From IMG/VR virus record IMGVR_UViG_3300032305_001973, positions 1-61,613 of that record: a stretch of 61,613 nt of DNA. One strand, given 5' to 3'. Below, piece after piece: positions 1-60,521 of the stretch. A program made the position numbers and the translations under genes. Under the pieces are notes generated by a model. The model was not told where the DNA came from, did not search any database, and worked only from the letters and a program-made list of their open reading frames with translations. The stretch comes from a virus. Its lineage: Duplodnaviria; Caudoviricetes. Each line of letters begins with the position of its first letter. The first letter of the stretch is position 1.

Positions 1-643
1 GGCTGCGGCGGTAGGGGATCAACCCCTCGCCCTGGGCCTCGATGTCGTCGGGGCCGAGGAAGAACCCATCGAACTCATCAGCGGCGCTTACACGTTGTCC
101 CGGCTTGCGGAGGCGTACCAGGCCTACACTCACCCGCGTGGGGCGCTCGGCGGTGGTGAAGCATTCGCCTAGGGATTCGCGGCTGCCGTAGGCGTTGATC
201 AGGTGGGCTAGCTGTTTCTGCAGACCTTTGGGGCCGCGCTGGGTAAGGCGATGCACGTACTCATCGCAGATCGTGTTCCAGTTGCACAAGGCCACGATCT
301 CGCAGCCGGGCGGGGCGATCTGCCAGGCGTGGAGAATGTGGGCCTCGTCCGCCGAGAAGGGCGGGTTCATCACGATCAGATCGATGTGACTGACCGGGGC
401 CGCTTCCAGCTTGAGGAAGTCGGGACTGATGCAGTAGCCACCGCGCTGCGTTGTCAGCAGGTCTAGCAGTTGCGGCTCGGTTTCACACCACAGCACCTCG
501 GCAGCGCCACGGTTCAGGCACTCGCGCACCAGGTTCCCACTGCCGGCGCTGGGCTCCAGGATCGTCTTGCCCCGTAGGTCAAGGCAATCGAGCATGGTGG
601 CCGCTACTTCGGGCGGGGTGGGGTAGAAATCAGGGTTGAACAT
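1..643 (-). CDS. N6-adenine DNA methyltransferase-like protein (DUF4942-type), 3' end runs off the window
   Basis: Not in the ORF track because it has no stop in the window. My translation from ATG at 643 is MFNPDFYPTPPEVAATMLDCLDLRGKTILEPSAGSGNLV...IDLIVMNPPFS, with FYPTP, motif I (LEPSAGxG) and motif IV (NPPF). Confidence 0.85.
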   Translation of the reverse strand, partial: MFNPDFYPTPPEVAATMLDCLDLRGKTILEPSAGSGNLVRECLNRGAAEVLWCETEPQLLDLLTTQRGGYCISPDFLKLEAAPVSHIDLIVMNPPFSADEAHILHAWQIAPPGCEIVALCNWNTICDEYVHRLTQRGPKGLQKQLAHLINAYGSRESLGECFTTAERPTRVSVGLVRLRKPGQRVSAADEFDGFFLGPDDIEAQGEGLIPYRRS

Positions 644-646
644 TGC

Positions 647-1786
647 TCAAACCTCAGACCAGTCAACCCGAACCGCCGAGTGCAGCGTCCCATCGGCGAT
701 AGCACGGGCAGCGGTGCCGGGGTCCATGGTGGTGAGGGTTGCGGTAAGGGCAGTCACAAGGCCATCCCGGCGCTGCTGCTTGGCCTCCTCAGCTTTGGCA
801 GCCGCCTCCCTCAGTTGCGCCTCCATCTCGGCTTGCTGCTTGACGCGAGCCTCTTCCCGAGCGGCTGCCTCCTCAGCCCGGCGCTCCGCCTCTTCCTGCG
901 CAAGGCGGGCCGCCTCTACCTGGGCCAGGGCCTGGGCTTCGCGGGCGGCGATTGCTTCCCGTTCCTTGCGTGCCTGCTCCTCAGTAGCAAGACGCTGGCG
1001 CTCGGTTTCAGCTTCACGGGCCAGGCGATCGGCCTCCACTGCCTCTCGTTGAAGCTGCGCGATGCGGTCGGCCTCCTCGCGGGCCGCCTTCTCGGCGCGT
1101 AGAGCCTCCAGCTCTATGCGCTCCGCTTCCTGGGCAGCCAGGGTGTCGTGCAGGATCTGCAGCCGCTCTAGGGCCTCAGCGCAACGGTTGGCGCCAGCCT
1201 CGCTGAACTCCTCCAGCGTGGTGGGGTCGATCGTGCCCAGCTCTGCCAAGCGGGCGGAAGCGTCAAGGGCGGTTTCAACCCCTTCGGTAAGCGCAGCAAT
1301 GCGATCCAGGACAGCCCGGTGCGCTTCGATGCGGGCCTCTTCCCGAGCCTCAATCGCCTTGATGGCCGTTTCATGCGGCTCGATCAGGCCCTGAACGGCT
1401 GCTTCCAGCGTCTTGGCGGTTTCGTCAACCGTCTTGCCGCGCTGCAGGTGAACCGCCTTGGCGTCCTTCCGGGCGCGTTCGATCTTGCCCTTGAGCTGAC
1501 GCAGCTCGTAAACCCAGGAGCGAGCCTGCTTGTTGTCCCACTTGTCGTCGTAGTCAAAAACCTTGCCGGGGGCATCTCCCTCGGCGATGGCGATGTCGCA
1601 GGCGATGGCTTCCCATCGGCTGATCGCCTGCGCTTCGGCTGCCGGAACGATGGCGGCCTGGGGGGCGGCGGGGGCTTCCGTGGCGGCTGGGGCCTCGGTG
1701 GGCAGCACCTCTGCGGTGACGGCTGGGGGTGCTGCGGTGGCGGCCTTAGCGGTTTTGGCTCTGGCCTTGGTGGAGGTGGCGGTCAT
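647..1786 (-). CDS. Coiled-coil phage protein of unknown function
   Basis: Long ORF, likely start MTATSTK. Ala/Pro-rich N-terminus followed by Glu/Ala/Arg-rich helical heptads. Confidence 0.75.
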   Translation of the reverse strand: MTATSTKARAKTAKAATAAPPAVTAEVLPTEAPAATEAPAAPQAAIVPAAEAQAISRWEAIACDIAIAEGDAPGKVFDYDDKWDNKQARSWVYELRQLKGKIERARKDAKAVHLQRGKTVDETAKTLEAAVQGLIEPHETAIKAIEAREEARIEAHRAVLDRIAALTEGVETALDASARLAELGTIDPTTLEEFSEAGANRCAEALERLQILHDTLAAQEAERIELEALRAEKAAREEADRIAQLQREAVEADRLAREAETERQRLATEEQARKEREAIAAREAQALAQVEAARLAQEEAERRAEEAAAREEARVKQQAEMEAQLREAAAKAEEAKQQRRDGLVTALTATLTTMDPGTAARAIADGTLHSAVRVDWSEV

Positions 1787-1878
1787 GTGGTGGTGATCGT
1801 TTCGGAACGACCTACGTACGATACCATTATGAAACCGCAACGGCTTAGACCAGCGGCCATTCATCACGAAACACCACC

Positions 1879-2514
1879 ATGGCGACCAGCACCAAGGCCC
1901 CCGAGGAGGCCATCAGTATCAAGGCGCCGGATTTCCGGTTCCTGGAGATCAACATCAAGGGCACTTCGCCTTTGGTGGTCAACCGGTTCAGCGCCAAGGC
2001 CATCGAGATGATGCGGGCCACACAGGAAGCGGGCAGCACCGCCAAGGCAAAGAAGGTGCGCGAACCGAAAGATTTCGATGCCTTGTTTGAGAACGCCAAA
2101 CACGTCTCAAACGACGGCTGGGAGGGGATCCACGCTGCCGCCTTCCGCAATGGCGCCATCAGCGCCTGCCGGGCCGTTGGCTACAAGATGACCCACGCAA
2201 AGCTCGCGTTCTGCGTGCTGCAGGATGGCTTCGACCGGGTAGATGGTGTCCCGCTGGTGCGCCTTTCCGAGGGAGTAGCTGAGCAGTGGGTGGCCCCAAC
2301 CCGGAACGCTACGGGCGTGGCTGATCTGCGCTGCCGCCCGATGTATCGGGAATGGGCTGCCGTGTTGCGCATCCGGTATGACGCAGGGATGCTCAGCTCC
2401 AGCGATGTGGTGAACCTGATCAGCCGCGTGGGGCTCCAGGTCGGCATTGGCGAAGGGCGCCCCGATAGCAAGGCCAGTGCAGGCTTAGGCTTTGGCCTCT
2501 TTGAAATTATCTGA
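1879..2514 (+). CDS. Stand-alone Cas7/RAMP-like (RRM-fold) protein, locus 1
   Basis: N-terminal strand INIKGTSPL, the helix motif IHAAAFRNGAISA, RPMYREW, and a C-terminal Gly-rich loop VGIGEGRP...GFGLF. This order matches Cas7/Csm3-group RAMPs. No other cas genes nearby. Confidence 0.75.
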   Translation: MATSTKAPEEAISIKAPDFRFLEINIKGTSPLVVNRFSAKAIEMMRATQEAGSTAKAKKVREPKDFDALFENAKHVSNDGWEGIHAAAFRNGAISACRAVGYKMTHAKLAFCVLQDGFDRVDGVPLVRLSEGVAEQWVAPTRNATGVADLRCRPMYREWAAVLRIRYDAGMLSSSDVVNLISRVGLQVGIGEGRPDSKASAGLGFGLFEII

Positions 2515-2528
2515 CAATCGGATTACGT

Positions 2529-3490
2529 GGGCCATGGTTGCGTCTGCTGCCATGGCCTGGGCTAGGCAACGAGCGAAGTGGCAAGGGTTCGCAGGTATGG
2601 TGCGGAAGGCGTGTCCGGGGCTCGCAAGGTTGACGCGGCAGGCATGGCCCGGTCAGGTCGGAACGGCCAAGCCGGGAGGGCGTGGCAGGCACGGAATGGC
2701 AGGGGAGGTCAACCATGGTCGGGCCGGGAACGGCAGGCATGGCTTCGAGGGGCTTGGCGAGATCTGGACTGGAAGGGCACGGCAGGCATGGCTTCGGAAG
2801 GCACGGCCAGGCCAGTTCTGGCAGGCAAGGCGTGGTCAAGCGTGGAAGGTCAAGCACGGCTGGCTAGGCGAGATGGGCGATGCGGAGCGAGGTAAGGCAC
2901 GGCACGGCTGGCTAGGTGTGGTCGGGCTAGGGCAAGGCACGGCTGGCAAGGCCTCGTGGGCACCACTGGCGGGGCATGGCAGGCGAGGTAACAAGGGCAT
3001 GGCTGGGTCTGGTGTGGCAGGGTGCTGCAGGCATCGCTAGGTGCGGAAGGACAGGTTCGGCAGGCAAGGCAGTGGTGGCAGGGCCAGGACCGGACTGGCA
3101 GGCGTGGCAGCGACGGCAGGATCAGGCTGGGAACGGCAGGCACGGTGTGGCGAGGTCAGGAGCGATCGAGGCACGGCATCGGACGGCAGGCATGGCCAGG
3201 AAGGCAGGGATCGGCAGGCAAGGAAAGGCGTGACCTGGACAGGCGTGGCTGGCAAGGCGAGATCTGGCGCGGAACGTCTGGTGAGGCACGGCAGGCATGG
3301 CACGGTCTGGATGGGTAGGGCACGGCAGGACTGGCTAGGAAGGTCTGGCGGTGTACGCCGTCGCAGGCTCGGCGCGGCCCGGCAAAGCGCGGCATGGAAG
3401 GGCACGGCAGGCAAGGCAAGGAACGATCGAGGATCGGTCGGGCGTGGCGCTGCTGGCCTCGCTTGTTGGCGCAAGGCACCGCACGATGCG
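2529..3490 (+). repeat. About 1 kb pentamer-periodic GGY-NN array (about 20 units separated by a 4-nt GGCA/GGCT); putative guide-RNA array
   Basis: Example: GGCA|GGCAT GGCAC GGTCT GGATG GGTAG GGCAC GGCA|. It starts about 15 nt after the RAMP stop. Overlapping ORFs in all frames are low-complexity G/R/A/W artefacts. Confidence 0.9.
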
Positions 3491-3526
3491 GCTCAGCTTG
3501 CGTGTTGCGGTTGCCAAATGGCAGCA

Positions 3527-3556
3527 GAATGGGGGTCCGAATGGGCCTCCTCATTC
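3527..3556 (+). other. Stem-loop closing array 1
   Basis: GAATG-GGGGTCC-GAAT-GGGCCTCCT-CATTC is an imperfect inverted repeat just before the next ATG. Confidence 0.5.
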
Positions 3557-3571
3557 CTATCCCCTGAACAC

Positions 3572-4129
3572 ATGGATTTTATCAAGGCTGAACCTGAGTA
3601 CGTCTTCCGAATTGAGGATGGCGAGGAAGCGATGGGCGTCGATGCCCAGACCGCTGGCAGCGAGCTAGACCGCATCCGGCGGCGTGATGGCACGATCCGC
3701 CCTGCTGCGGTGGTTGACGAGGCCAGACCGGAGGAGGCACCGCTGCATCCGGCGTTTGAGTGGCGCGATCCGGTGGCGGCTGAGCAATGGCGCGAGCATC
3801 AGGCCAGCACGCTGATCAAGGTGGTGCGGGTGGTGCCTGCTGCTCCGCAAGAGCCTCGCGTGGCATCGGTGCGGCCTGTCACCCAGGCGGCTGCCCCGGT
3901 GGTGGAGCGCTTCGACCCGATGGCCAAGGAGGTGCTTGAGGCCGTGGGCCTGGTGGTGGAGGCCCGCCGCAAGGTTGAGGAGCTGAAACTGCGCACCCAG
4001 CGGATGGGCGATCGAAAATCGATGGCCGTGCTGGGAGTGGCGTTCAAGATGCTCGATGAAGCCCACGAAGCGCTCGCAAACTGTCAGGTCAGCAGCACAT
4101 GGGAGCGAGAACTACAGCGGGCCCGGTGA
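3572..4129 (+). CDS. Partner protein of RAMP locus 1 (AVVDEAR-PLHPAFEW-AAEQWR motif)
   Basis: The real start is MDFIKAEPE at 3572; the upstream part of track ORF 3041..4129 is array sequence. Normal amino-acid composition, followed by a terminator. Confidence 0.8.
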   Translation: MDFIKAEPEYVFRIEDGEEAMGVDAQTAGSELDRIRRRDGTIRPAAVVDEARPEEAPLHPAFEWRDPVAAEQWREHQASTLIKVVRVVPAAPQEPRVASVRPVTQAAAPVVERFDPMAKEVLEAVGLVVEARRKVEELKLRTQRMGDRKSMAVLGVAFKMLDEAHEALANCQVSSTWERELQRAR

Positions 4130-4146
4130 GACTCGTGCAGAGATCG

Positions 4147-4172
4147 AGGGGGCCGTGGTTGGCCCCTTTTTT
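4147..4172 (+). terminator. Intrinsic terminator ending locus 1
   Basis: AGGGGGCC-GTGGTT-GGCCCCT followed by a T-run. Confidence 0.8.
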
Positions 4173-4198
4173 ATGAGCGGCTCAACTGTGACCGGGGT

Positions 4199-4474
4199 TC
4201 AGAGGTGATCGCTAGCCCGCTCCATCCACGCCTCGGCGTATGCCTGCACCTCGGCCAGCTTGCGGAACATCTCAGCCCGCTCGTCTCGGGCCTGCTGCCA
4301 GGCGGCATCACCCTGGGGGTAGAAGTCGCGGGCGTTGCAGGTGGCGGCCTGAAGTGCATCGCTGGCCCTGTCGATGGCCTGGTAGACGGCGTGGTACTCA
4401 TCGGCTAGGGACTTGGCCCCGGTGCCGTTCAGGTGGATCGTGGGCAGGGCGTAGGCGGTGGTGGTGGCGGGCAT
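4199..4474 (-). CDS. Small early phage protein
   Basis: 91-aa ORF (PTIHLNGTG...RDFYPQG) preceded by the ACC-rich leader cassette. Confidence 0.75.
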   Translation of the reverse strand: MPATTTAYALPTIHLNGTGAKSLADEYHAVYQAIDRASDALQAATCNARDFYPQGDAAWQQARDERAEMFRKLAEVQAYAEAWMERASDHL

Positions 4475-4522
4475 GGGTCGGAGGCGGTGGGGTGGTGGTG
4501 TGGTTGCCGGATGAGGCAGTGG

Positions 4523-4669
4523 TCAGGCGTAAGGGCAGTCAGGGTTGCCGGTTGGCTTGTAGCCAAGCTCGGCTGCGCAGCGGGCTAGGCGCTGATCCAG
4601 CTCGCGATTGGCGCGAGCCCCGAGGGCCTTCATTTGAGCTTCGATCTTGGCAAGTTCGGCGGTGGTCAT
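4523..4669 (-). CDS. 48-aa hypothetical protein
   Basis: My translation is MTTAELAKIEAQMKALGARANRELDQRLARCAAELGYKPTGNPDCPYA*. It fills the space between two leader cassettes. Confidence 0.6.
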   Translation of the reverse strand: MTTAELAKIEAQMKALGARANRELDQRLARCAAELGYKPTGNPDCPYA

Positions 4670-4726
4670 GGCGGTCGGTGGGGTGGTGGTGTGGTTGCCG
4701 GGATGGGCTCCGGCGGGCCGTGGGGG

Positions 4727-5017
4727 TTAGGCGGCCATGGGGTGAAGGCTGGTGCCGCCGGTGAAGTGGATGCGAATGCATCTGCCCATGGTCCAGCCAA
4801 AGGCGCGGCTGTAGGAAGGGATGCTGTCGTCGTCAGCGGGCAGCGAGTTGATCATTTGCTGGCGCACCGCGTCGTTGTCCATTGCGGTAGCTAGCAGGGC
4901 TGCCTTGGTCTTGCGAGCTGTGTAACCGGCCAGAACTAAGCCCCCATTGATGGTGACAGCTACTTCGTAACCGGTAGGGCGGTTGTGGGTGGATCCGTGG
5001 GCGAGGGCGGAGATCAT
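4727..5017 (-). CDS. Hypothetical protein
   Basis: 96-aa ORF downstream of the duplicated promoter block and CCACC leader. Confidence 0.65.
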   Translation of the reverse strand: MISALAHGSTHNRPTGYEVAVTINGGLVLAGYTARKTKAALLATAMDNDAVRQQMINSLPADDDSIPSYSRAFGWTMGRCIRIHFTGGTSLHPMAA

Positions 5018-5107
5018 GGCTGGTGGTGGGTGGTGGTGGGATCTCTCCCCCCGGTCACCATACTGTAACCCATGCGTGACGGCATGGGAGGGACAGTGCT
5101 GGCCGGT

Positions 5108-5344
5108 TCACGAATTGTCATCAGCCAGCCGCCGCCGGGCTCTGCTCCGCCGCACCCGCTCCGCCACATCGGCCCGGCCCTCGGGGGTGAGCCTGAGCCA
5201 GCAGCGCTGGCACCACGGGTCGTGCTTGCCGGTGTGGAGGGTGCCGCAGGCCTGGCAGGGCACGCGCACCACCGGGGGCAGCCGCTCTGCCTGCCGTTCG
5301 CGGTAGCGGCGGCTGCGATCGGCGGCGGTGGGGTCAGTAGGCAT
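5108..5344 (-). CDS. Small Cys-rich (CxxC...CxxC) basic protein
   Basis: MPTDPTAADRSRRYRERQ...CQACG...WCQRCW. Confidence 0.6.
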   Translation of the reverse strand: MPTDPTAADRSRRYRERQAERLPPVVRVPCQACGTLHTGKHDPWCQRCWLRLTPEGRADVAERVRRSRARRRLADDNS

Positions 5345-5516
5345 GGGCACCATTCTCCGGCAGGAGCCGCACCATGGCCCACCAGAGACGGGAGGACTGA
5401 GCCTCCCAGCACACCTGGCAGACGGTGCCGGTGGCGTTGTCGGGCCAGCGCTCGGCGGGGTCAGGGATCGGCTCGGAGCAGGCGGAACAGGAGGGGATGG
5501 CGGTGGGGTCAGGCAT
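5334..5516 (-). CDS. Small Zn-finger-like protein
   Basis: CSAC...CQVCW; overlaps both neighbours as in an operon. Confidence 0.5.
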   Translation of the reverse strand: MPDPTAIPSCSACSEPIPDPAERWPDNATGTVCQVCWEAQSSRLWWAMVRLLPENGAHAY

Positions 5517-5715
5517 CCTGCACCCGAGCAACACGCAGGCTGCCGCCGCACAACCGGGCAGCTTGATCACGCAGCTGCATTGCTTCGGCGCGGCTTTGGA
5601 ACTGATCGGCAAGGGTCAGGCCGCAGAATTCAGGCATTTTGCTGTTGTCGTTTACGCGGATGCCGAACCCCCAGCGGTTGCCGTCGTGGGCTTCAACTCG
5701 GTAGGTGGTGGTCAT
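5509..5715 (-). CDS. Hypothetical protein
   Basis: 68-aa ORF after a leader cassette. Confidence 0.55.
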   Translation of the reverse strand: MTTTYRVEAHDGNRWGFGIRVNDNSKMPEFCGLTLADQFQSRAEAMQLRDQAARLCGGSLRVARVQDA

Positions 5716-5770
5716 GTCTGTTGATGCAGTGAGGATGGTTTGCCGGATAGGCTCTGGCGGGCCGCGGGGG

Positions 5771-5932
5771 TCAGGCGGTTTTGATGTGGAAGCCCCGAGC
5801 GATCTCTTTAAGTTCGGCTTCAGTGCGGAAAATCAGCATGAGCCAAAAATCTCCGGTGACTTCTAAATTGTTGGCCTTGATGGCGTTCATGATGTTGTGG
5901 CGGAGGGCTTGCTTGCGCTGGGTTGCGGTCAT
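5771..5932 (-). CDS. 53-aa hypothetical protein
   Basis: MTATQRKQALRHNIMNAIK..., after the second copy of the promoter block. Confidence 0.6.
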   Translation of the reverse strand: MTATQRKQALRHNIMNAIKANNLEVTGDFWLMLIFRTEAELKEIARGFHIKTA

Positions 5933-6036
5933 GGCTGGTGGTGGGTGGTGGAAGCTTTCGCTCCCGATGCACATACTGTAACCCACGCGTGACGGTCTGC
6001 CCCACCCATCGGTGGCCAGTTCACGAATCGTCGCAA

Positions 6037-6225
6037 TCAGGCCAGCAGCTTGACCACCCGATGGCGAGAGCACCCCAGCCGGCGGGCGATCTCGCGCTGA
6101 CTGACCCCAGAGCGGCGCCACCGGCGGGCCCGGTCGCGTTTGGTTTCGAGTGCCCAGGCAATAGCAACCAGGACGATCAGCAGAGGCGTCAGCACCCACA
6201 GCAGGGCGCAGGAAATGGTGGTCGT
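6037..6225 (-). CDS. Membrane-anchored HTH protein with no canonical start (ACG in the start position)
   Basis: (T)TTISCALLWVLTPLLIVLVAIAWALETKRDRARRWRRSGVSQREIARRLGCSRHRVVKLLA*, a TM helix plus an HTH. Confidence 0.5.
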   Translation of the reverse strand, partial: TTTISCALLWVLTPLLIVLVAIAWALETKRDRARRWRRSGVSQREIARRLGCSRHRVVKLLA

Positions 6226-6421
6226 CGGTTCGGTGGTGGTAGAACCAACCGGGGCACTCAGGCCTCACCGGTCAGTTGGAAATGGTGTGCCGGATCTCTC
6301 CGACTCGCACATCATAACCCCTGTGGCAGCGATCAAGGCTGGTATGATGCAAGAGCAGCGGGGTGGTTCCTGCTGTTCAGGCCGGTCGGCCTGGTGGTGA
6401 GCGAAGCCCTTGGCGTGATCG

Positions 6422-6853
6422 TCAGGGGCTTTGCTTTTGGAGCGGGATCAGGGTGATCAATGCCCCCGGTTTCTCCAGCCCCACGCAGTAGCGCTTCTGC
6501 CAGGTGCAGCTCACGATGCGAGCGTCATCCTCCAGCAGGGAACCCGTGAGGCCGTCTTCGGTGCTTCTGAGCAACTTGGACCCGTCAGGCTTGACAGCGT
6601 GATGCTCGGGGGCTGAGGCCCGCAGGATGCCCTTCGGCGTGTAGTGGCCCTTCGGCCGCAGGAACAAGAACACCACCGACATAGAAACGGGCCCCCGGAT
6701 GATCGGGAGCCCGGTGGCAATGGCGGCGCTGGTGACTAGGGCCCGCCAGGGTTTGACGTTGCGGCAGGATTCAATCATCACCCCCTTGCCAAGGTGACGC
6801 TTGCTCCCTTGCGGTGCCGGCGCCATGCCCTCGACTCGGAAGGTGTAGGCCAC
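6422..6853 (-). CDS. rusA: RusA-family Holliday junction resolvase
   Basis: PAPQGSKR, GPVSMSVVFLFLRPKGH, KPDGSKLLRSTED..., DDARIV. Confidence 0.85.
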   Translation of the reverse strand: MAYTFRVEGMAPAPQGSKRHLGKGVMIESCRNVKPWRALVTSAAIATGLPIIRGPVSMSVVFLFLRPKGHYTPKGILRASAPEHHAVKPDGSKLLRSTEDGLTGSLLEDDARIVSCTWQKRYCVGLEKPGALITLIPLQKQSP

Positions 6854-7506
6854 TAGAACGGCGCCTCCTCATCCGATGGGGGGCCACCCCAGCCACCACC
6901 CGCTTCGGCATCCCGTCTGCTGCCCAACAGATCAAGGCGATCCACACGAATCACGGGTTTAGATCTCTCCTCCCCGGTGCTGCGATCGGTCCACAGCTCC
7001 AGCTTGAATGATCCGGTGATACCCAGCAGGGAGCCCTTCCGCACGTAGTCGGCAGCGATCTGGGCTTGCTTACCCCAGACCTCTAGGTTGAACCAGTCGG
7101 CTTCATCGCGGCTCATGCGATTGACGGCCAGGGAGAGATTAGCCACCATGCTGCCGGATTCAAAGTAGCGGACTTCGGGATCACGACCGGCACGACCCAC
7201 AAGGCTCACGATGTTGATGCTTGGCGCGCTTAGCGGGGTGACCGCATGGAATGAACTAATCTGCAGCTCTGGGGGTCGGTTCTTCTCGATGCGGAGGCGT
7301 CCGGTCAGCACGTAATGCTTGCCTAGCTTGATGCCTGCTCCAGCTTCTTCGGCGAGGTTTCCCCATGCCGTGACTTGCAAGGCCATGGGGGGATCGTTGT
7401 CGCGGTATGCGGCGACCTCAACCGGGAAGGTAGCGATCTGCTTGTCGCCAGCGGCTTTGATCGTGGGAGCTGCCTTGACGAGGGCCAGCAGGGTGAGGTT
7501 GTTCAT
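6853..7506 (-). CDS. ssb: Single-stranded DNA-binding protein with two tandem OB folds
   Basis: C-terminal half INIVSLVGRAGRDPEVRYFESG...WFNLEVWGKQAQIAADYVRKGS and acidic tail DEEAPF. The N-terminal half is a diverged second SSB domain (VTAWGNLAE...VLTGRL). Confidence 0.9.
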   Translation of the reverse strand: MNNLTLLALVKAAPTIKAAGDKQIATFPVEVAAYRDNDPPMALQVTAWGNLAEEAGAGIKLGKHYVLTGRLRIEKNRPPELQISSFHAVTPLSAPSINIVSLVGRAGRDPEVRYFESGSMVANLSLAVNRMSRDEADWFNLEVWGKQAQIAADYVRKGSLLGITGSFKLELWTDRSTGEERSKPVIRVDRLDLLGSRRDAEAGGGWGGPPSDEEAPF

Positions 7507-7557
7507 CGGATGTGGGGTTAGTAGAGGTTGCCGGGTTGGCCCCGGCGGGCCGTGAGG

Positions 7558-7767
7558 TCAGGCAACAAGAAGCGCATTTATTGAGTTATATGGCATCTTA
7601 AATTCTACAATTCCCTCCTTTTTCATTTCGTTTACGATTGCTTCGGGAATAGGAATGGTTACTGTTTGCCTATAGGCTATTCGTGGCTCTGAAAGCCACC
7701 ATCCTGTCCCGCGATTAGTTAGGTCCCATCCTTGCTTGAGTCGTTGCACGATGTCTGCTTTTTCCAT
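7558..7767 (-). CDS. AT-rich small hypothetical protein
   Basis: MEKADIVQRLKQGWDL...; GC content is lower than the flanks. Confidence 0.55.
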   Translation of the reverse strand: MEKADIVQRLKQGWDLTNRGTGWWLSEPRIAYRQTVTIPIPEAIVNEMKKEGIVEFKMPYNSINALLVA

Positions 7768-7805
7768 GGTTGTGTTTGTTACAAAGGTGAGCGGGAAAGA
7801 ATTGA

Positions 7806-8669
7806 TCAAGCGGCAGCCGGAGCATCCCAGGTGCGCGGCAGATCGGGGTCGTCGTCGGTCAGGGCAGCACCGGCAGCGTTCCACTTCTTCACCGAGGGCG
7901 CAGAAACACCAGCGGTAGCCAGCTTGCGCAGAATCTCGATAGGTAGTTGGCCGATAACGTAGGTATCGCCGTTGCTTAGCTCATTGGCCATGGCGTTCAT
8001 TCCAAACGGAGTGAGGCCGGCCTCCTGGCAGCGTTTTACGGCTGTAGCCAATATGGCGGCAGGAGCACCGCTATCAGCCTGCTGCTGAGGCTGGGCAGCC
8101 TGTTGAGGATGAGCAGGTGCCTGACTGGCAGGTGATGCCGGCCTTATGGGTGGCGCTGGTCTGGCAGCTGTTCGGCGAGCTGGCGATTGAGTTGCTGGAG
8201 ATTGCCGCCGTGGCGCTACCTCATGGCTGGTGGCGTCTGCGTCGTTGTCCCCGCTGGTTGGAATACAAAACGCCTGCATGGCAGCGTATTTGTAGGCGGC
8301 CGACATTGCCTTGTTGGTGGCTTTGTCGGCGCTATCCATAGCCTCGCCGAACGTCTTAACAACGTGGTGCGAGCCATCTTCGGCTGCTACAAAGTCAAAT
8401 TCAACTTCTACGACAACATTAAAGAGTGCGCCGCCAGACTTGGTTTCCCGCTCTGTTTCAAGGCGGTTTAAAACGCGGGGCAAAACAACAAGCCCAGCCT
8501 CTGACAAGATTGGCGCCAGAGCATTGTAAACATCGTCAATGCCGCGAAAGTTGTAGCCCTGTTGGCTGTTTCGCTTGTCTTTAGCAATTCCTTTGCTGGC
8601 AATGGCCCCAGCAACGGCGGCGATGGCGCGGTAGACGGCGGGCGGTGCGTGCCCCGAGGCTTCGGTCAT
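7806..8669 (-). CDS. erf: ERF-family ssDNA annealing recombinase
   Basis: QGYNFRGIDDVYNAL...GEAMDSADKATNKAMSAAYKYA...FCIPT...DNDAD. Confidence 0.9.
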   Translation of the reverse strand: MTEASGHAPPAVYRAIAAVAGAIASKGIAKDKRNSQQGYNFRGIDDVYNALAPILSEAGLVVLPRVLNRLETERETKSGGALFNVVVEVEFDFVAAEDGSHHVVKTFGEAMDSADKATNKAMSAAYKYAAMQAFCIPTSGDNDADATSHEVAPRRQSPATQSPARRTAARPAPPIRPASPASQAPAHPQQAAQPQQQADSGAPAAILATAVKRCQEAGLTPFGMNAMANELSNGDTYVIGQLPIEILRKLATAGVSAPSVKKWNAAGAALTDDDPDLPRTWDAPAAA

Positions 8670-53230: not shown

Positions 53231-53725
53231 TCACGGTTCCCCCTCGTCTGCAGGTGGCGTCCCGAGGCCACGGGCCTGGATCTGCAACAGCACCCGCCGT
53301 TCATCGTCTGGGGTGAGCCCAGCAGAGGCAAGGGCATCCATCACCGTGGCGATGGTCTTGCGCTCTACGCGGCGATCGGCGGCAGCATCAGACCACGTTT
53401 CTCGTGTCGTGGGGTTGTGGGTCAACCACCATTGGGCATCACGAGGATCAAGTGATCCTGTGATGATTTTGATTGCGCGAATTTCTGCTAGATGACGCCC
53501 TTCCTGGATAGCAGCCAGAAACTGGTTTTCCAGTTCGGAGCCGATGCCTTGTTCCGCTTTTAGCATCCATGCCTTAATAGTGCTGATCGATGCCTTGCAA
53601 GCCCTGGCAACGGTGTCCAAAGCGCCACCCTGCTCAGAGATGTCCCGAGCGGTCTGGACCACCTCTGCAGTGAGCTTGCTTGGGCGGCCAGCAGGCACGG
53701 GTAGCGCGGCGTTGCGGTCGCCCAT
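53231..53725 (-). CDS. terS: Terminase small subunit (putative)
   Basis: GRPSKLTAE...HTH (VARACKASISTIKAW)...AQWWL; upstream of terL. Confidence 0.7.
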   Translation of the reverse strand: MGDRNAALPVPAGRPSKLTAEVVQTARDISEQGGALDTVARACKASISTIKAWMLKAEQGIGSELENQFLAAIQEGRHLAEIRAIKIITGSLDPRDAQWWLTHNPTTRETWSDAAADRRVERKTIATVMDALASAGLTPDDERRVLLQIQARGLGTPPADEGEP

Positions 53726-53762
53726 AGTCTAAGCCATAATTGCCGTTTGGGAACGGCAACGG

Positions 53763-54278
53763 CTACCCACGCGATGAAGTCACAGCGGTATCCCCGTTGT
53801 ATCTTCCGACCTCGGCATAGGACGCAAGGGGGGTGGAGTCCATGCGCAGAAACTTCATCTGCCCGATCCTGAGGCCTGGGTAGATGCCAACCCAGTGGAG
53901 CTGCCTCACGTTTTTCAGCTCCAGGGTGAGGCGTGAGCCGTTCCAACCGGGGTCGCACCATCCGGCTAACAGGTGCTGTAGGCCTTCGCGGGCGCGGGAC
54001 GATTTGAGCACGAACTGTGCGGCGATGCACTTAGGCAGGTTGAAGATGGGCTCCCCCTCTGCAAGCACAAATTGCCCCGGCACCATGCGGTAGGGGACGT
54101 CTGCGGTGTGGTGGGCCATGCTGTAGGGCACAAGGCCGGGCCCCTCGCTGGACTCGATCAGGATGTTCGAGCCCAGGCGAAGGTCCAGGCTTGCAGGGTT
54201 GAGGAGGGCGGGTTCAAAGGGGGTGACCATGCCGGCTTCGCATAGGGCACGGATCTGGAAGTCAGCGAGAACGGTCAT
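53763..54278 (-). CDS. dcd: dCTP deaminase
   Basis: NPASLDLRLG, KSSRAREG, AGWCDPGWNG, LTLEL, IGQMKF. Confidence 0.92.
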   Translation of the reverse strand: MTVLADFQIRALCEAGMVTPFEPALLNPASLDLRLGSNILIESSEGPGLVPYSMAHHTADVPYRMVPGQFVLAEGEPIFNLPKCIAAQFVLKSSRAREGLQHLLAGWCDPGWNGSRLTLELKNVRQLHWVGIYPGLRIGQMKFLRMDSTPLASYAEVGRYNGDTAVTSSRG

Positions 54279-56181: not shown

Positions 56182-57086
56182 AATCCCATCTCTTGCTCAT
56201 CTTGCGCCTGCTCAGCCATAAGCAGCTGCCATTGTTCCCCTTCAGGGGTTAATCGCCAACCATGCGAAGTAAAGTCAATGGCTTTTTCAAGGCGATCAAG
56301 TATCGCAAAACGCACCGAAGAGCTATGGTCGTAAGCGGACATTTTGCTGTCAGGAACCGTTGCCTCTCCCCCTGCCGGCTGGGTGGGTTGGGTGTCCCGC
56401 TCCTCCCCTGGATACGGTTCGAGCACTTCCAGCCGTGCGCAGGTCACTGCGGTCTGAGCCAGAACATTGCCCCACGGAATCCCGGCGTTTTCGGTAATTG
56501 ACATCAACACCAGCAGCACATCGGCAGCCTCGCTGAGCGGATCGCCGTACTTGCCCCGGATGGCCTCGGCCAGCTCTGAACATTCCAAATGCAAGCAGGC
56601 AATCCGACAAGTCCAATGAAGAGACCAGTCGCGCTTCCTGCACATGGCCAGAACGCGGGCGGGTAGCGTGTCTGGGGGCTGGGCGGCGCCGCGCTGGTGG
56701 CCGAGGTTGTAGATGGCGCGGATTTGCGCTTTGAGCACTTCGACAGGAGTCAACGCTTTGTCGTAATCCCTGCAATTGAGAATCGCCACCTTTGCGGCAT
56801 CCGCATAGCAGTCAGCCAGTTCCTGATCCGTGACCACCGGAGCGCCCTCGGGCGTGGGGGCCGTCAGCTCAACGCTGCCGGGGATCGGCCGCTGCTCCAG
56901 CGCTTCCAGGCGTCGCACGATTGCCTCATTGCAAAATAAGCTGCTCTGGGATTGCTCAGTGGCGTCAGCCTCCAGCGCCTCCAACCGCTCCAGCAGGTGC
57001 AGTAGCGCCCGTGAGTAGGTCGAGCCATCGACAAGAACGGATTGACGCAACCAGGCCAAGACCTCGGGAGATAGCGGTTGAGTCAC
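56178..57086 (-). CDS. Mosaic protein with a MazG-like NTP pyrophosphohydrolase segment
   Basis: LHLECSELAEAIRGK...LSEAADVL (ExxE...ExxD). Confidence 0.6.
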   Translation of the reverse strand: MTQPLSPEVLAWLRQSVLVDGSTYSRALLHLLERLEALEADATEQSQSSLFCNEAIVRRLEALEQRPIPGSVELTAPTPEGAPVVTDQELADCYADAAKVAILNCRDYDKALTPVEVLKAQIRAIYNLGHQRGAAQPPDTLPARVLAMCRKRDWSLHWTCRIACLHLECSELAEAIRGKYGDPLSEAADVLLVLMSITENAGIPWGNVLAQTAVTCARLEVLEPYPGEERDTQPTQPAGGEATVPDSKMSAYDHSSSVRFAILDRLEKAIDFTSHGWRLTPEGEQWQLLMAEQAQDEQEMGL

Positions 57087-57814
57087 GCCTTCACCTCATG
57101 CCGCGCCAGAACCGAACGCAGAAACTCGGTAGCGGCTTCGTTGCTGTCATAGAAATGGCTGTGTGCCTCGACCCCCCCGAGCATCAAGCCGGCGACACCC
57201 GGGCCAACTGCGGCCTGCAGTAGCCGGCCAACCTCGCCGGCCTGGTGAATCAACCAGCCGCCCAGGCAGTGCCTGGTATCGCAGGTGTGCCAGGTGTGCA
57301 TTTCCAGCGCACCCTCCTGGAGCGCGGCAGCCGCGGCGGCCCTGAGGCGTTGAGGAGCGTCGGCTGCGATAGCGATGCCACTTGCCCCTTTGAGGTCAGC
57401 CCCTTCGAGGTTGGCCCCGCCGAGGCTGGCCTCTTCGAGGCTGGCCCCTTTGAGGCTGGCCCCGTTGAGGCTGGCCCCTTCGAGGTTGGCCCCGTTGAGG
57501 CTGGCCCCGTCGAGATCGGCCTCTTCGAGGTTGGCCCCGCCGAGGTTGGCCCTGTTGAGGCTGGCCCCGTCGAGGCTGGCCCCTTTGAGGCTGGCCCCGT
57601 TGAGGCTGGCCCCTTCGAGGCTGGCCCCGTCGAGGCTGGCCCAGTCGAGGCTGGCCCCTTCGAGGTTGGCCCCGTCGAGGTTGGCCCTGTTGAGGCTGGC
57701 GCCGTCGAGGATGGCCCCTTTGAGGCTGGCGCGTTGGCCGCTCGGATCACCGGCCAACCAGCGAGCGTGGCTGGCCAGGATTTCGGGCAGGTTGCGTGTT
57801 GGTGATTCAGGCAT
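57083..57814 (-). CDS. Pentapeptide-repeat protein
   Basis: More than 20 A(S/N/D)LxG repeats (15-nt DNA repeat at about 57385-57730); C-terminal WHTCDTRHCLGGW. Confidence 0.9.
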   Translation of the reverse strand: MPESPTRNLPEILASHARWLAGDPSGQRASLKGAILDGASLNRANLDGANLEGASLDWASLDGASLEGASLNGASLKGASLDGASLNRANLGGANLEEADLDGASLNGANLEGASLNGASLKGASLEEASLGGANLEGADLKGASGIAIAADAPQRLRAAAAAALQEGALEMHTWHTCDTRHCLGGWLIHQAGEVGRLLQAAVGPGVAGLMLGGVEAHSHFYDSNEAATEFLRSVLARHEVKA

Positions 57815-59831: not shown

Positions 59832-60521
59832 TTACTTGATATCCGCTGCGATCACAGATTCTGGATCTGCAAAACCAAATAGAGGCAAAAAGAAAAATGG
59901 CAAACCATTTGCGCGCATAACTGCAGCGCCTTGAATTTCATTTGTTGCCCCTGCGCTGGCCCATGCGCTGTCCCGTGCGCTGGCCCGTGCGCTGGCCCAT
60001 GCGCTGGCCCGTGCGCTGTCCCATGCGCTGGCCCGTGCGCTGGCCCATGCGCTGGCCCATGCGCTGTCCCGTGCGCTGTCCCGTGCGCTGGCCCGTGCGC
60101 TGTCCCGTGCGCTGTCCCGTGCGCTGGCCCGTGCGCTGGCCCATGCGCTGGCCCGTGCGATCCAATCCTCGGGGCTCATGTGGTCAAGATGCCGCCAAAA
60201 AGCAAGCACGATATGAGCTTGATCGCCAATTACCTTTTCGGGATCGCGTATAACAACTGAAGGCGCACCATCCTCCGTGTCGTTGATTAGTCGCAGCAGC
60301 ACTGCGTGAGCGCGACTGATTCCAAGCAACTCGGCAACACGTTTATCCGCTTCTTCCTGTTCAAGGTTGCTTAGATCATCAGCAGACATGCCGTCGAGAA
60401 AATGCAGCGCCTGTCCTTGCGCACACATGCAAGAACCATCATCGCTAACGAGACTTCCCTTGAACGGGATATTGCCGGGCCAGAAGGCCAGCAATTCTTC
60501 AACTGTGGTTGGGTTTGCCAT
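59832..60521 (-). CDS. Phage protein with (A/D)SA(R/W) tetrapeptide repeats
   Basis: 229-aa ORF containing an in-frame 12-nt tandem repeat. Confidence 0.7.
   Translation of the reverse strand: MANPTTVEELLAFWPGNIPFKGSLVSDDGSCMCAQGQALHFLDGMSADDLSNLEQEEADKRVAELLGISRAHAVLLRLINDTEDGAPSVVIRDPEKVIGDQAHIVLAFWRHLDHMSPEDWIARASAWASARASARDSARDSARASARDSARDSAWASAWASARASAWDSARASAWASARASARDSAWASAGATNEIQGAAVMRANGLPFFFLPLFGFADPESVIAADIK
59952..60155. repeat. 12-nt tandem repeat TGCGCTG(G/T)CCC(A/G), about 17 copies, coding
   Basis: Directly visible; two binary variable positions. Confidence 0.9.

What the first reader, a model, noticed from the sequence alone, without database searches (positions are those of the whole stretch)
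2529..3490. Grammar of array 1: about 20 different units of 5-9 pentamers punctuated by a 4-nt GGCA/GGCT
Seen: the 5-nt phase is reset by a tetramer, giving junctions such as GGCAC-GGCA-GGCAT, GGAAC-GGCA-GGCAC and GGCAC-GGCT-GGCTA roughly every 30-50 nt. The flanking pentamers are semi-constant, the internal NN differ between units, and some units carry 4- or 6-nt irregularities (GGAA, GATCGA). This is not a slippage microsatellite, because positions 1-3 are conserved while positions 4-5 vary. Inference: the tetramer marks processing or filament boundaries, so the array is a multi-guide library.
Basis: partly seen in the sequence, partly recalled or inferred. Interest (0 to 1): 0.85.

Follow-up and report, generated by a model that had tools for sequence, protein, structure and literature searches.

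The report
Phage VIPR guide-RNA array (staggered type)
The G-rich five-base repeat is the guide-RNA array of a phage VIPR system, a recently described CRISPR-like way for phages to silence rival DNA, so it is a real and interesting feature but of a kind already in print.

Summary
Window 2529-3490 is a non-coding, 44.6% G tract of GGY-NN pentamers whose register is reset mostly by 4-nt steps. Its fit to this grammar is about 15 sd above shuffles, and entropy is low at positions 1-3 and near-maximal at 4-5.

This fits the VIPR systems described in 2026 preprints. The 4-nt reset matches their 'staggered arrays with 1-nt overlapping vrRNAs'.

Caveats:
- The window's own array is degenerate. Only 3 runs reach 8-10 pentamers.
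- No targets were found in 1.1 Mb of related phage DNA.
- RNA ends were not testable.

Verdict: a new member of a known kind.

The parts
1879..2514 (+). vipr gene (211 aa, P0121): small RAMP-fold protein, the predicted binder of the GGY triplets
2529..3490 (+). vrRNA array: GGY-NN pentamers with 4-nt register steps (GGCA|GGC, GGCT|GGC). The clear periodic core runs from about 2594 to 3453.
   Evidence: There are 97 perfect in-phase GGY pentamers in 2594-3453. No Pfam or PHROG family matches the ORFs that overlap it. No Rfam family matches.
3454..3571 (+). Non-repeat spacer between the array and the downstream gene, well conserved in the five closest relatives
   Evidence: Alignment A2. Its predicted RNA fold is no better than shuffles, z -0.75. 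Its role is unknown; it could be a 5' UTR or the array's end.
3572..4129 (+). Conserved downstream gene (185 aa, P0122): candidate vipr-accessory protein (vap)
   Evidence: phrog_15946, function unknown. 129 homologues. The same family follows the array in distant relatives L069, L076, L054 and L049. AF2 pLDDT is 71.9. No Foldseek match at E<=1e-3. No Pfam family.
4149..4172 (+). GC-rich hairpin (6 bp, 6-nt loop) followed by T6, 20 nt after the stop codon: likely end of the vipr-array-vap unit
   Evidence: Read directly from the sequence. The consensus scan did not list it. Genes beyond it run on the minus strand.

Best explanation
Window 1879-4172 is a VIPR (Viral Interference Programmable Repeat) locus of a temperate lake-water tailed phage, laid out as vipr, vrRNA array, candidate vap, terminator.

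How it most likely works. The array is transcribed rightward, most likely together with vipr (inferred). Copies of the Vipr protein line up along the RNA, one per pentamer, and bury each GGY (established for SUSP1 Vipr; inferred here from homology). The two variable bases of each pentamer stay exposed and read double-stranded DNA, skipping every third base. The complex then silences genes of competing phages or other mobile elements.

The 4-nt steps. They are the junctions of a tail-less 'staggered' array, where the last base of one guide is the first G of the next. In the family as a whole the junction is GGCAC-[C/G]GCA-GGC, and a guide has typically 9-10 pentamers.

State of the window's copy. 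It is a worn version. A few units are full-length, at 2736, 2785 and 3366. Many are truncated units rich in the junction motif.

For: 2. Grammar. GGY is conserved and NN is near-random.

3. Linkage. An array lies within 1 kb downstream of vipr on the same strand in 44 of 50 loci that have at least 300 nt downstream. It lies on the opposite strand in 0, upstream in 0 of 55, and in 1 of 508 background windows.

4. Staggering. All phase changes are 4-nt steps in 11 clean arrays (L046, L051, L054, L057, L060, L063-L067, L069). Their internal segments are mostly 39-69 nt, that is 5n+4. The junction logo comes from 71 junctions.

5. Not coding. Unit lengths and indels are not multiples of 3 (for example 34, 44, 49 and 77 nt).

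6. Turnover by whole blocks between close relatives. One RNA-library contig of a relative skips 34 nt, from 3287 to 3322.

7. Constraint. 17-26% of array columns vary among six close relatives. The same measure is 61% at vipr third codon positions and 34% at third positions of the downstream gene.

8. Codon-like NN. The NN of 76 distinct family units (575 dinucleotides) resemble sense codon positions 1-2 of this phage's genes, r 0.78 (bootstrap 0.58-0.85; label permutation p 0.0002). The values are 0.14 for antisense, -0.20 for positions 2-3 and 0.00 for positions 3-1. This is what a wobble-skipping reader of coding DNA would show.

9. No self-match. The window's units match their own genome no better than permuted units do.
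Against: - Unit length. In the window itself only 3 of 10 runs of 5 or more pentamers reach 8-10 pentamers, whereas published vrRNAs have 9-16. 8 of 28 phase changes are not 4-nt steps.
- Variation between close relatives is not concentrated at NN. GGY columns vary in 86 of 413 cases and NN columns in 63 of 271 (Fisher p 0.45). For GG against NN, p is 0.17.
- The codon-like signal is weak for the window alone, r 0.25 over 97 pentamers, with N4 = A in 44%. In the pooled set it rests mostly on single-base composition (r 0.89), and the interaction term has r 0.44, p 0.086.
- No promoter or terminator was flagged by the scan.
- The aromatic W178 of SUSP1 is Gly here.
- The downstream protein shows no recognisable DNA-binding fold.
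- Transcription rests only on contigs of relatives in three lake metatranscriptome libraries, and these cannot prove RNA origin.
Confidence: 0.88

Rival explanations
1. It is a VIPR array by descent, but in this phage clade it is largely decayed. Most units are truncated remnants that no longer guide anything. At most two or three units (2736, 2785, 3366) still work.
For: Segments are short and ragged, median 30 nt, and 8 of 28 phase changes are irregular. Junction-type GGCAN pentamers are in excess, with N4 = A in 44%. GG and NN columns vary equally among close relatives. Relatives such as L049 keep only a degenerate remnant of about 170 nt.
Against: Array columns vary much less than synonymous sites of the neighbouring genes, 17-26% against 61% and 34%. 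The vipr gene is intact and its key residues are conserved. [quoted passage not shown]
Confidence: 0.25
2. The array acts as a sponge or decoy. It would be a long run of GGY sites that soaks up Vipr proteins of competing phages, or redirects them, rather than guiding the phage's own Vipr.
For: According to the abstract of 10.64898/2026.10.15.759431 (abstract and a few Methods passages seen), satellites carry stand-alone vrRNAs that redirect a phage's VIPR to decoy sites. The window's array has many junction motifs and few long guides.
Against: The array sits directly behind its own intact vipr gene, in the same operon-like unit, in 44 of 50 loci. In clean relatives the NN are diverse and codon-like, which a pure sponge would not need.
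Confidence: 0.05
3. It is a DNA-level element: a G-rich non-template strand that forms R-loops or two-tetrad G-quadruplexes (as in immunoglobulin switch regions), or iterons for a replication, partition or packaging protein.
For: GC skew is about +0.2 over 2-5 kb. GG tracts every 4-5 nt could form G2 quadruplexes; this is an inference and was not tested.
Against: It does not explain the conserved Y at position 3, the 5n+4 unit lengths, the fixed junction motif, or the strict linkage and co-orientation with a RAMP-fold gene. A 5-bp period is half a helical turn, which is unlike known iterons (established knowledge).
Confidence: 0.03
4. It is protein-coding, as a low-complexity Gly/Ala/Arg-rich repeat protein read from one of the long open frames.
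For: Long ORFs cross it (2492-3040 +, 3037-3474 -, 3156-3554 -). This is expected wherever T is rare.
Against: No Pfam or PHROG family matches these ORFs. A 5-nt period with 4-nt resets changes frame at every unit. Indels between close relatives are often not multiples of 3.
Confidence: 0.01

Closest known systems
VIPR 'staggered vrRNA arrays' (legend of fig. S18 in bioRxiv 10.64898/2026.04.26.720920)
   Same: A head-to-tail run of GGY/NN guides without spacers, each ending where the next begins with a 1-nt overlap, which is the same as a 4-nt step. It sits next to a vipr gene in a phage.
   Different: I saw only the legend; the figure and supplementary data were closed. I therefore cannot say whether this phage family or its junction motif GGCAC-SGCA is the one shown. 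According to the main text, sRNA-seq confirmed other forms, not the staggered one. The window's copy is longer (about 960 nt, about 20 junctions) and more degenerate than the clean relatives.
Type II VIPR of Escherichia phage SUSP1 and the Pseudomonas fulva prophage (same preprint; structures in 10.64898/2026.04.26.720927)
   Same: A Vipr of about 20 kDa with a RAMP fold, thumb Arg and glycine-rich loop. GGY-NN pentamers. A two-gene locus. A phage setting.
   Different: SUSP1 vrRNAs are separate transcripts of about 100 nt with 9-16 repeats and an invariant structured 3' tail of about 40 nt. Here there are no tails, and the 136 nt after the array show no fold above shuffles. Sequence similarity to SUSP1 Vipr is confined to the C-terminal third. 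SUSP1 W178 is Gly here. The downstream protein has no detectable similarity to anything named.
Class 1 CRISPR backbones (Csm3/Cmr4/Cas7 on crRNA)
   Different: There is no repeat-spacer array with the 60-79-nt period that the genome-language-model preprint gives for CRISPR arrays. No further cas-type gene was recognised among the neighbours that I scanned. The period is 5 nt with 2 read bases, rather than 6 nt with 5 read bases.
TRAP-type RNA wrapping (11 G/UAG triplets with 2-3-nt spacers around a ring); recalled, not tested
   Same: Conserved triplets are separated by two free bases, one triplet per protein subunit. This was my first working analogy.
   Different: TRAP is a regulatory attenuation protein of a different fold, and its spacers carry no information. 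The Vipr hit made this analogy unnecessary.

Membership tests
VIPR system | A Vipr protein: a small RAMP with RRM core, thumb and glycine-rich loop | tested here: met
VIPR system | Tandem pentamers with conserved GGY and hypervariable NN, at least 4 units | tested here: met
   Entropy per phase is 0.78, 1.05, 1.52, 1.89 and 1.98 bits. The score is 15 sd above shuffles. There are 97 perfect in-phase GGY pentamers.
VIPR system | 9-16 repeats per vrRNA | tested here: inconclusive
   In the window, runs have 10, 9 and 8 pentamers at 2736, 3366 and 2785, and all other runs have 7 or fewer. In the family, 103 distinct units have 7-15 pentamers, with a mode of 9-10.
VIPR system | The array lies in the intergenic DNA flanking vipr, in a minimal locus without a CRISPR array | tested here: met
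   44 of 50 loci have the array within 1 kb downstream on the same strand. The window has no other periodic array. Rfam finds nothing, so no CRISPR repeat family matches.
VIPR system | A vipr-accessory (vap) gene predicted to act on DNA | tested here: inconclusive
   A conserved 185-aa gene follows the array here and in distant relatives. It has no Pfam family, no solved relative and no fold match.
VIPR system | An invariant structured 3' tail on each vrRNA (type II) | tested here: not met
   Units abut directly. The only constant parts are the last pentamer and the tetramer. The 136 nt after the array fold no better than shuffles. This rules out the type II layout, not VIPR, because the preprint lists tail-less staggered arrays.
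VIPR system | Targets matched by the NN through the 1-nt skip rule, with no self-targets | tested here: inconclusive
   103 units were searched against 1.10 Mb (the window, 10 whole related phages and 45 loci). One unit matched at >=90% under the 1-nt skip, against 1.5 for permuted controls. Self-matches are at control level. NN composition resembles sense codon positions 1-2, r 0.78.
VIPR system | vrRNAs are expressed and co-purify with Vipr | not testable with these tools
   Only Logan contigs of three lake metatranscriptome libraries were available. They cover parts of relatives' arrays and cannot show strand, ends or RNA origin.
Staggered vrRNA array | Successive guides overlap by 1 nt, so the 5-nt register steps by 4 nt at each junction | tested here: met
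   In the window, 20 of 28 phase changes are 4-nt steps. In 11 clean arrays all of them are. The junction logo is GGCAC-[C/G]GCA-GGC, from 71 junctions.
CRISPR-Cas | A repeat-spacer array (the 60-79-nt period that one search's preprint gives) with cas genes beyond a single RAMP | tested here: not met
   The period is 5 nt. The tandem-repeat finder and Rfam show no CRISPR repeats. Among the ORFs I scanned, the neighbours with a Pfam family are an SSB and an ERF recombinase on the opposite strand.

The most novel reading that the evidence does not exclude
In this large lake-phage family the guides mature without tails or ribozymes. On this reading the constant junction GGCAC-[C/G]GCA-GGC is itself the signal that ends one Vipr filament and starts the next, or is cut by Vipr in the way a Cas6-like RAMP cuts. 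That would be a third, self-delimiting way of making vrRNAs.

The NN of the guides carry the base make-up of sense-strand codon positions 1 and 2. This suggests that the family aims almost only at the template strand of protein-coding genes.

The window's ragged array of short units would then be a working multi-register filament track rather than debris.
Probability: 0.2. Interest if true: 0.6.

Novelty: new member of a known kind. Interest (0 to 1): 0.4.

Why it matters
VIPR was described only in 2026 and is proposed to be an ancestor of CRISPR guide-RNA machinery.

This locus shows that a very large family of uncultured lake-water phages carries the tail-less 'staggered' form. The Vipr homologue has 3606 matches at 90% clustering and 2483 cluster representatives at 50%. 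Arrays range from remnants of about 170 nt to 1.7 kb.

The family gives a clean natural data set for three things that the preprints leave open or only sketch:
- the junction motif;
- unit gain and loss;
- the codon-like make-up of the NN bases.

For the scan itself, it shows that a reader working from raw sequence recovered the right grammar and the right kind of function.

Tried and rejected
Working ideas dropped once the Vipr link appeared:
- a TRAP-like ring binder;
- an R-loop or G4 origin;
- a Chi-like decoy;
- centromere or pac iterons;
- a CsrA or Hfq sponge.
None explains the linkage to a RAMP gene.

Searches that gave nothing:
- Rfam at gathering threshold and tRNA: nothing.
- GenBank phages by megablast of window 1-8000: no match. 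By blastn of the array: only a 177-nt chance-level match in a mycobacteriophage gene.
- Promoter and terminator scan of 1700-4400: 0 and 0, although a hairpin followed by T6 is visible at 4149-4172.

Target search:
- Ten window units against 0.74 Mb with an over-wide mask (363 kb masked): best matches equal to permuted controls.
- 76 units against the same DNA with a proper mask: no excess for any skip rule.
- 103 units against 1.10 Mb that included ten whole related phage genomes: no excess under the 1-nt skip. The few 3-nt-skip hits are unmasked array homologues in G001.
- This shows only that the targets are not in these relatives.

Downstream protein: Pfam, PDB sequence search, AF2 with Foldseek, and the ESM Atlas all gave no function.

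Host: one MAG contig labelled Synechococcaceae (94% identity) and a MAG protein labelled Burkholderiaceae (78%). Binning of phage contigs is unreliable, so I name no host.

RNA libraries: three lake metatranscriptome runs hold short contigs of relatives over parts of the locus (shares 0.05-0.09). They give no ends, strand or proof of transcription.

Tools and files I could not use:
- Supplementary files of the preprints were closed. Fig. S18 and the type tables could bear on which VIPR type this is.

Full report
**What is there**

The window is a whole IMG/VR virus record of 61,613 bp, rated 100% complete by CheckV. It has the genes of a temperate tailed phage:
- large terminase, portal, tape measure, integrase and an O-like replication protein;
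- SSB and an ERF recombinase.

Positions 2529-3490 lie in a gap of about 1,050 nt between two plus-strand genes. These are 1879-2514 (211 aa, phrog_4652) and 3572-4129 (185 aa, phrog_15946), both of unknown function in PHROGs and without a Pfam family.

A GC-rich hairpin with a T6 run follows at 4149-4172. Beyond it the genes run on the other strand. The hairpin was read directly from the sequence; the consensus scan did not list it.

**The observation**

The tract has 429 G of 962 bases. Autocorrelation peaks at lags 5, 10, 14, 19, 24 and 29. A 5-nt period with regular 4-nt resets produces exactly this drift. Of 191 successive GG-GG distances, 78 are 5 and 41 are 4.

A five-phase Viterbi fit to GG-Y-N-N scores -34.7. 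For 200 dinucleotide shuffles the score is -265.7 +/- 14.9. The best of 44 other stretches of the window scores -242.8.

Entropy per phase is 0.78, 1.05, 1.52, 1.89 and 1.98 bits. 20 of 28 phase changes are 4-nt steps.

The 29 segments are 10-89 nt long, median 30. Ten runs have 5 or more pentamers, and only three have 8-10.

**Relatives**

The two flanking proteins brought in 84 loci from IMG/VR. Among the 57 loci found with the upstream protein, 50 have at least 300 nt downstream.
- 44 of these 50 carry a dense GGY pentamer array within 1 kb, on the same strand.
- None carries one on the opposite strand.
- None of 55 carries one upstream.
- 1 of 508 background windows reaches the same density.

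In more distant relatives the array is far cleaner. In 11 arrays every phase change is a 4-nt step, and most internal segments are 39-69 nt, that is 5n+4.

A logo of 71 junctions reads GGCAC-[C/G]GCA-GGC. Some arrays start with a leader ending AATCA-GGCAY-GGCA. This leader occurs twice in L076 and in L046, so arrays are built from cassettes.

Six loci fall below the threshold. L049 keeps a remnant of about 170 nt. L072, L073, L074 and L081 have a looser motif. L062 is unclear.

**What it is**

[quoted passage not shown] I read its Results, Discussion, four Methods sections and the figure legends. It reports the following:
- Phages encode a RAMP protein of about 20 kDa, Vipr, together with vrRNAs made of 9-16 GGY/NN pentamers.
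- The NN bases read double-stranded DNA while skipping every third base.
- Natural targets are competing phages and satellites.

A 1-nt overlap of two 5-nt registers is a 4-nt step.

I also saw parts of three related preprints:
- The structure preprint (section 5) shows one protomer per repeat in a helical filament.
- For a third preprint I saw the abstract and a few Methods passages. It shows VIPR deciding phage-satellite competition.
- A fourth (passages only) recovers period-5 arrays next to Vipr folds from a genomic language model.

**Membership tests run here**

The 211-aa protein alone hits only one PDB sequence, SUSP1 Vipr, at E 0.063. A 54-sequence profile was built from representatives at 38-55% identity. 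It hits SUSP1 Vipr at E 1.6e-6, and the next hit is at 0.64.

The aligned stretch holds three functional positions:
- the thumb arginine, R153 aligned with R138;
- E192 aligned with D177;
- R194 aligned with R179.
SUSP1 W178 is Gly here.

The family is very large: 3606 matches in one library and 2483 representatives in the other.

**Evolution of the array**

Among the window and its five closest relatives the array is alignable. It differs by point changes and by whole blocks:
- 48 nt are present only in the window.
- A 78-column block is present only in the window and L031.
- Other blocks are unique to L033.

One RNA-library contig of a relative skips 34 nt, from 3287 to 3322.

Column variability is even over the five phases, 17-26%. 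GGY against NN gives Fisher p 0.45. This variability is well below that of third codon positions, which is 61% in vipr and 34% in the downstream gene.

I read this as constraint on the whole array, NN included. A more recent common origin of the array module would give the same picture.

**A codon-like signature**

I pooled 76 distinct units of at least 7 pentamers from 26 arrays and dropped the two junction pentamers of each. This left 575 NN dinucleotides.

Their frequencies follow sense codon positions 1-2 of 34 long ORFs of this phage, r 0.78 (bootstrap 0.58-0.85; label permutation p 0.0002). The other comparisons give 0.14 for the antisense, -0.20 for positions 2-3 and 0.00 for positions 3-1.

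Most of the signal is single-base make-up. N4 resembles codon position 1 and N5 resembles position 2. The interaction term alone gives r 0.44, p 0.086.

For the window's array alone r is 0.25. That array is rich in junction-type GGCAN pentamers.

**What failed**

No target was found. 103 units were searched against 1.10 Mb, made up of the window, ten whole related phages and 45 further loci. They give no excess over permuted controls under the 1-nt skip (earlier rounds). The window's units do not match their own genome above control level, as the preprint reports for its systems.

The downstream protein has no assignable fold or family. I call it a candidate vap on synteny alone.

The 136 nt after the array show no fold above shuffles.

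RNA ends could not be examined. The three metatranscriptome runs are kept as contigs.

**Verdict**

This is a VIPR locus with a staggered, tail-less vrRNA array, confidence 0.88.

The kind is already in print, so this is a new member of a known kind.

- the size of the lake-phage family;
- the junction motif;
- turnover of the array by whole blocks;
- the codon-like make-up of the NN bases;
- the point that this window's copy is a worn one, in which perhaps three units are of full length.

Noticed in passing
window 57399-57730: A 15-nt tandem repeat (22 copies) lies inside ORF 57083-57814 (-). That ORF is a pentapeptide-repeat protein (PF00805, E 6e-45). This is a coding repeat, unrelated to the VIPR array.
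   Followed up: partly
window 59947-60159: A 12-nt tandem repeat (17.8 copies, 91% matches) lies inside ORF 59832-60521 (-), which has no Pfam family.
   Followed up: no
L033, L080, L082, L004 (alignment A2 columns about 39-190): A small open frame with a hydrophobic product sits between vipr and the array in four close relatives. It is absent from the window and from L031.
   Followed up: no
L069 6600-6625; L076 3150-3180 and about 3550-3570; L046 about 6640 and about 6805: Clean arrays begin with a shared leader ending AATCA-GGCAY-GGCA that contains a -10-like GATAAT/GAGAAT. It occurs twice in L076 and in L046, so arrays seem to be built of cassettes, each with its own start. The window lacks this leader.
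   Followed up: partly
L072 6618-7252; also L073, L074, L081: Variant arrays behind vipr homologues of 73-74% identity. Only the first G of each pentamer is well kept (entropy 0.66, 1.43, 1.63, 1.76, 1.96), and junctions read GAGGCAGG. This may correspond to the alternative repeat consensus that the preprint mentions.
   Followed up: partly
G008 (record behind L075), positions 79-221 and 53598-54194: Array units lie at the very start of the record while vipr lies at its end. The record is therefore cut within the VIPR locus and is probably circularly permuted.
   Followed up: no
window 5017-5085 and 5932-5998: Two near-identical intergenic elements (GGTGG-rich run, then ...CATACTGTAACCCAYGCGTGACGG...) lie upstream of minus-strand small genes. 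They may be a repeated promoter or operator.
   Followed up: no
window 4149-4172: A textbook-looking hairpin (6 GC pairs, 6-nt loop) followed by T6 was not listed by the terminator scan of 1700-4400.
   Followed up: no
L086 and protein P0023: Close copies of the vipr gene sit on MAG contigs labelled Synechococcaceae (94% identity) and Burkholderiaceae (78%). The two host hints conflict, and both are probably binned phage contigs.
   Followed up: no
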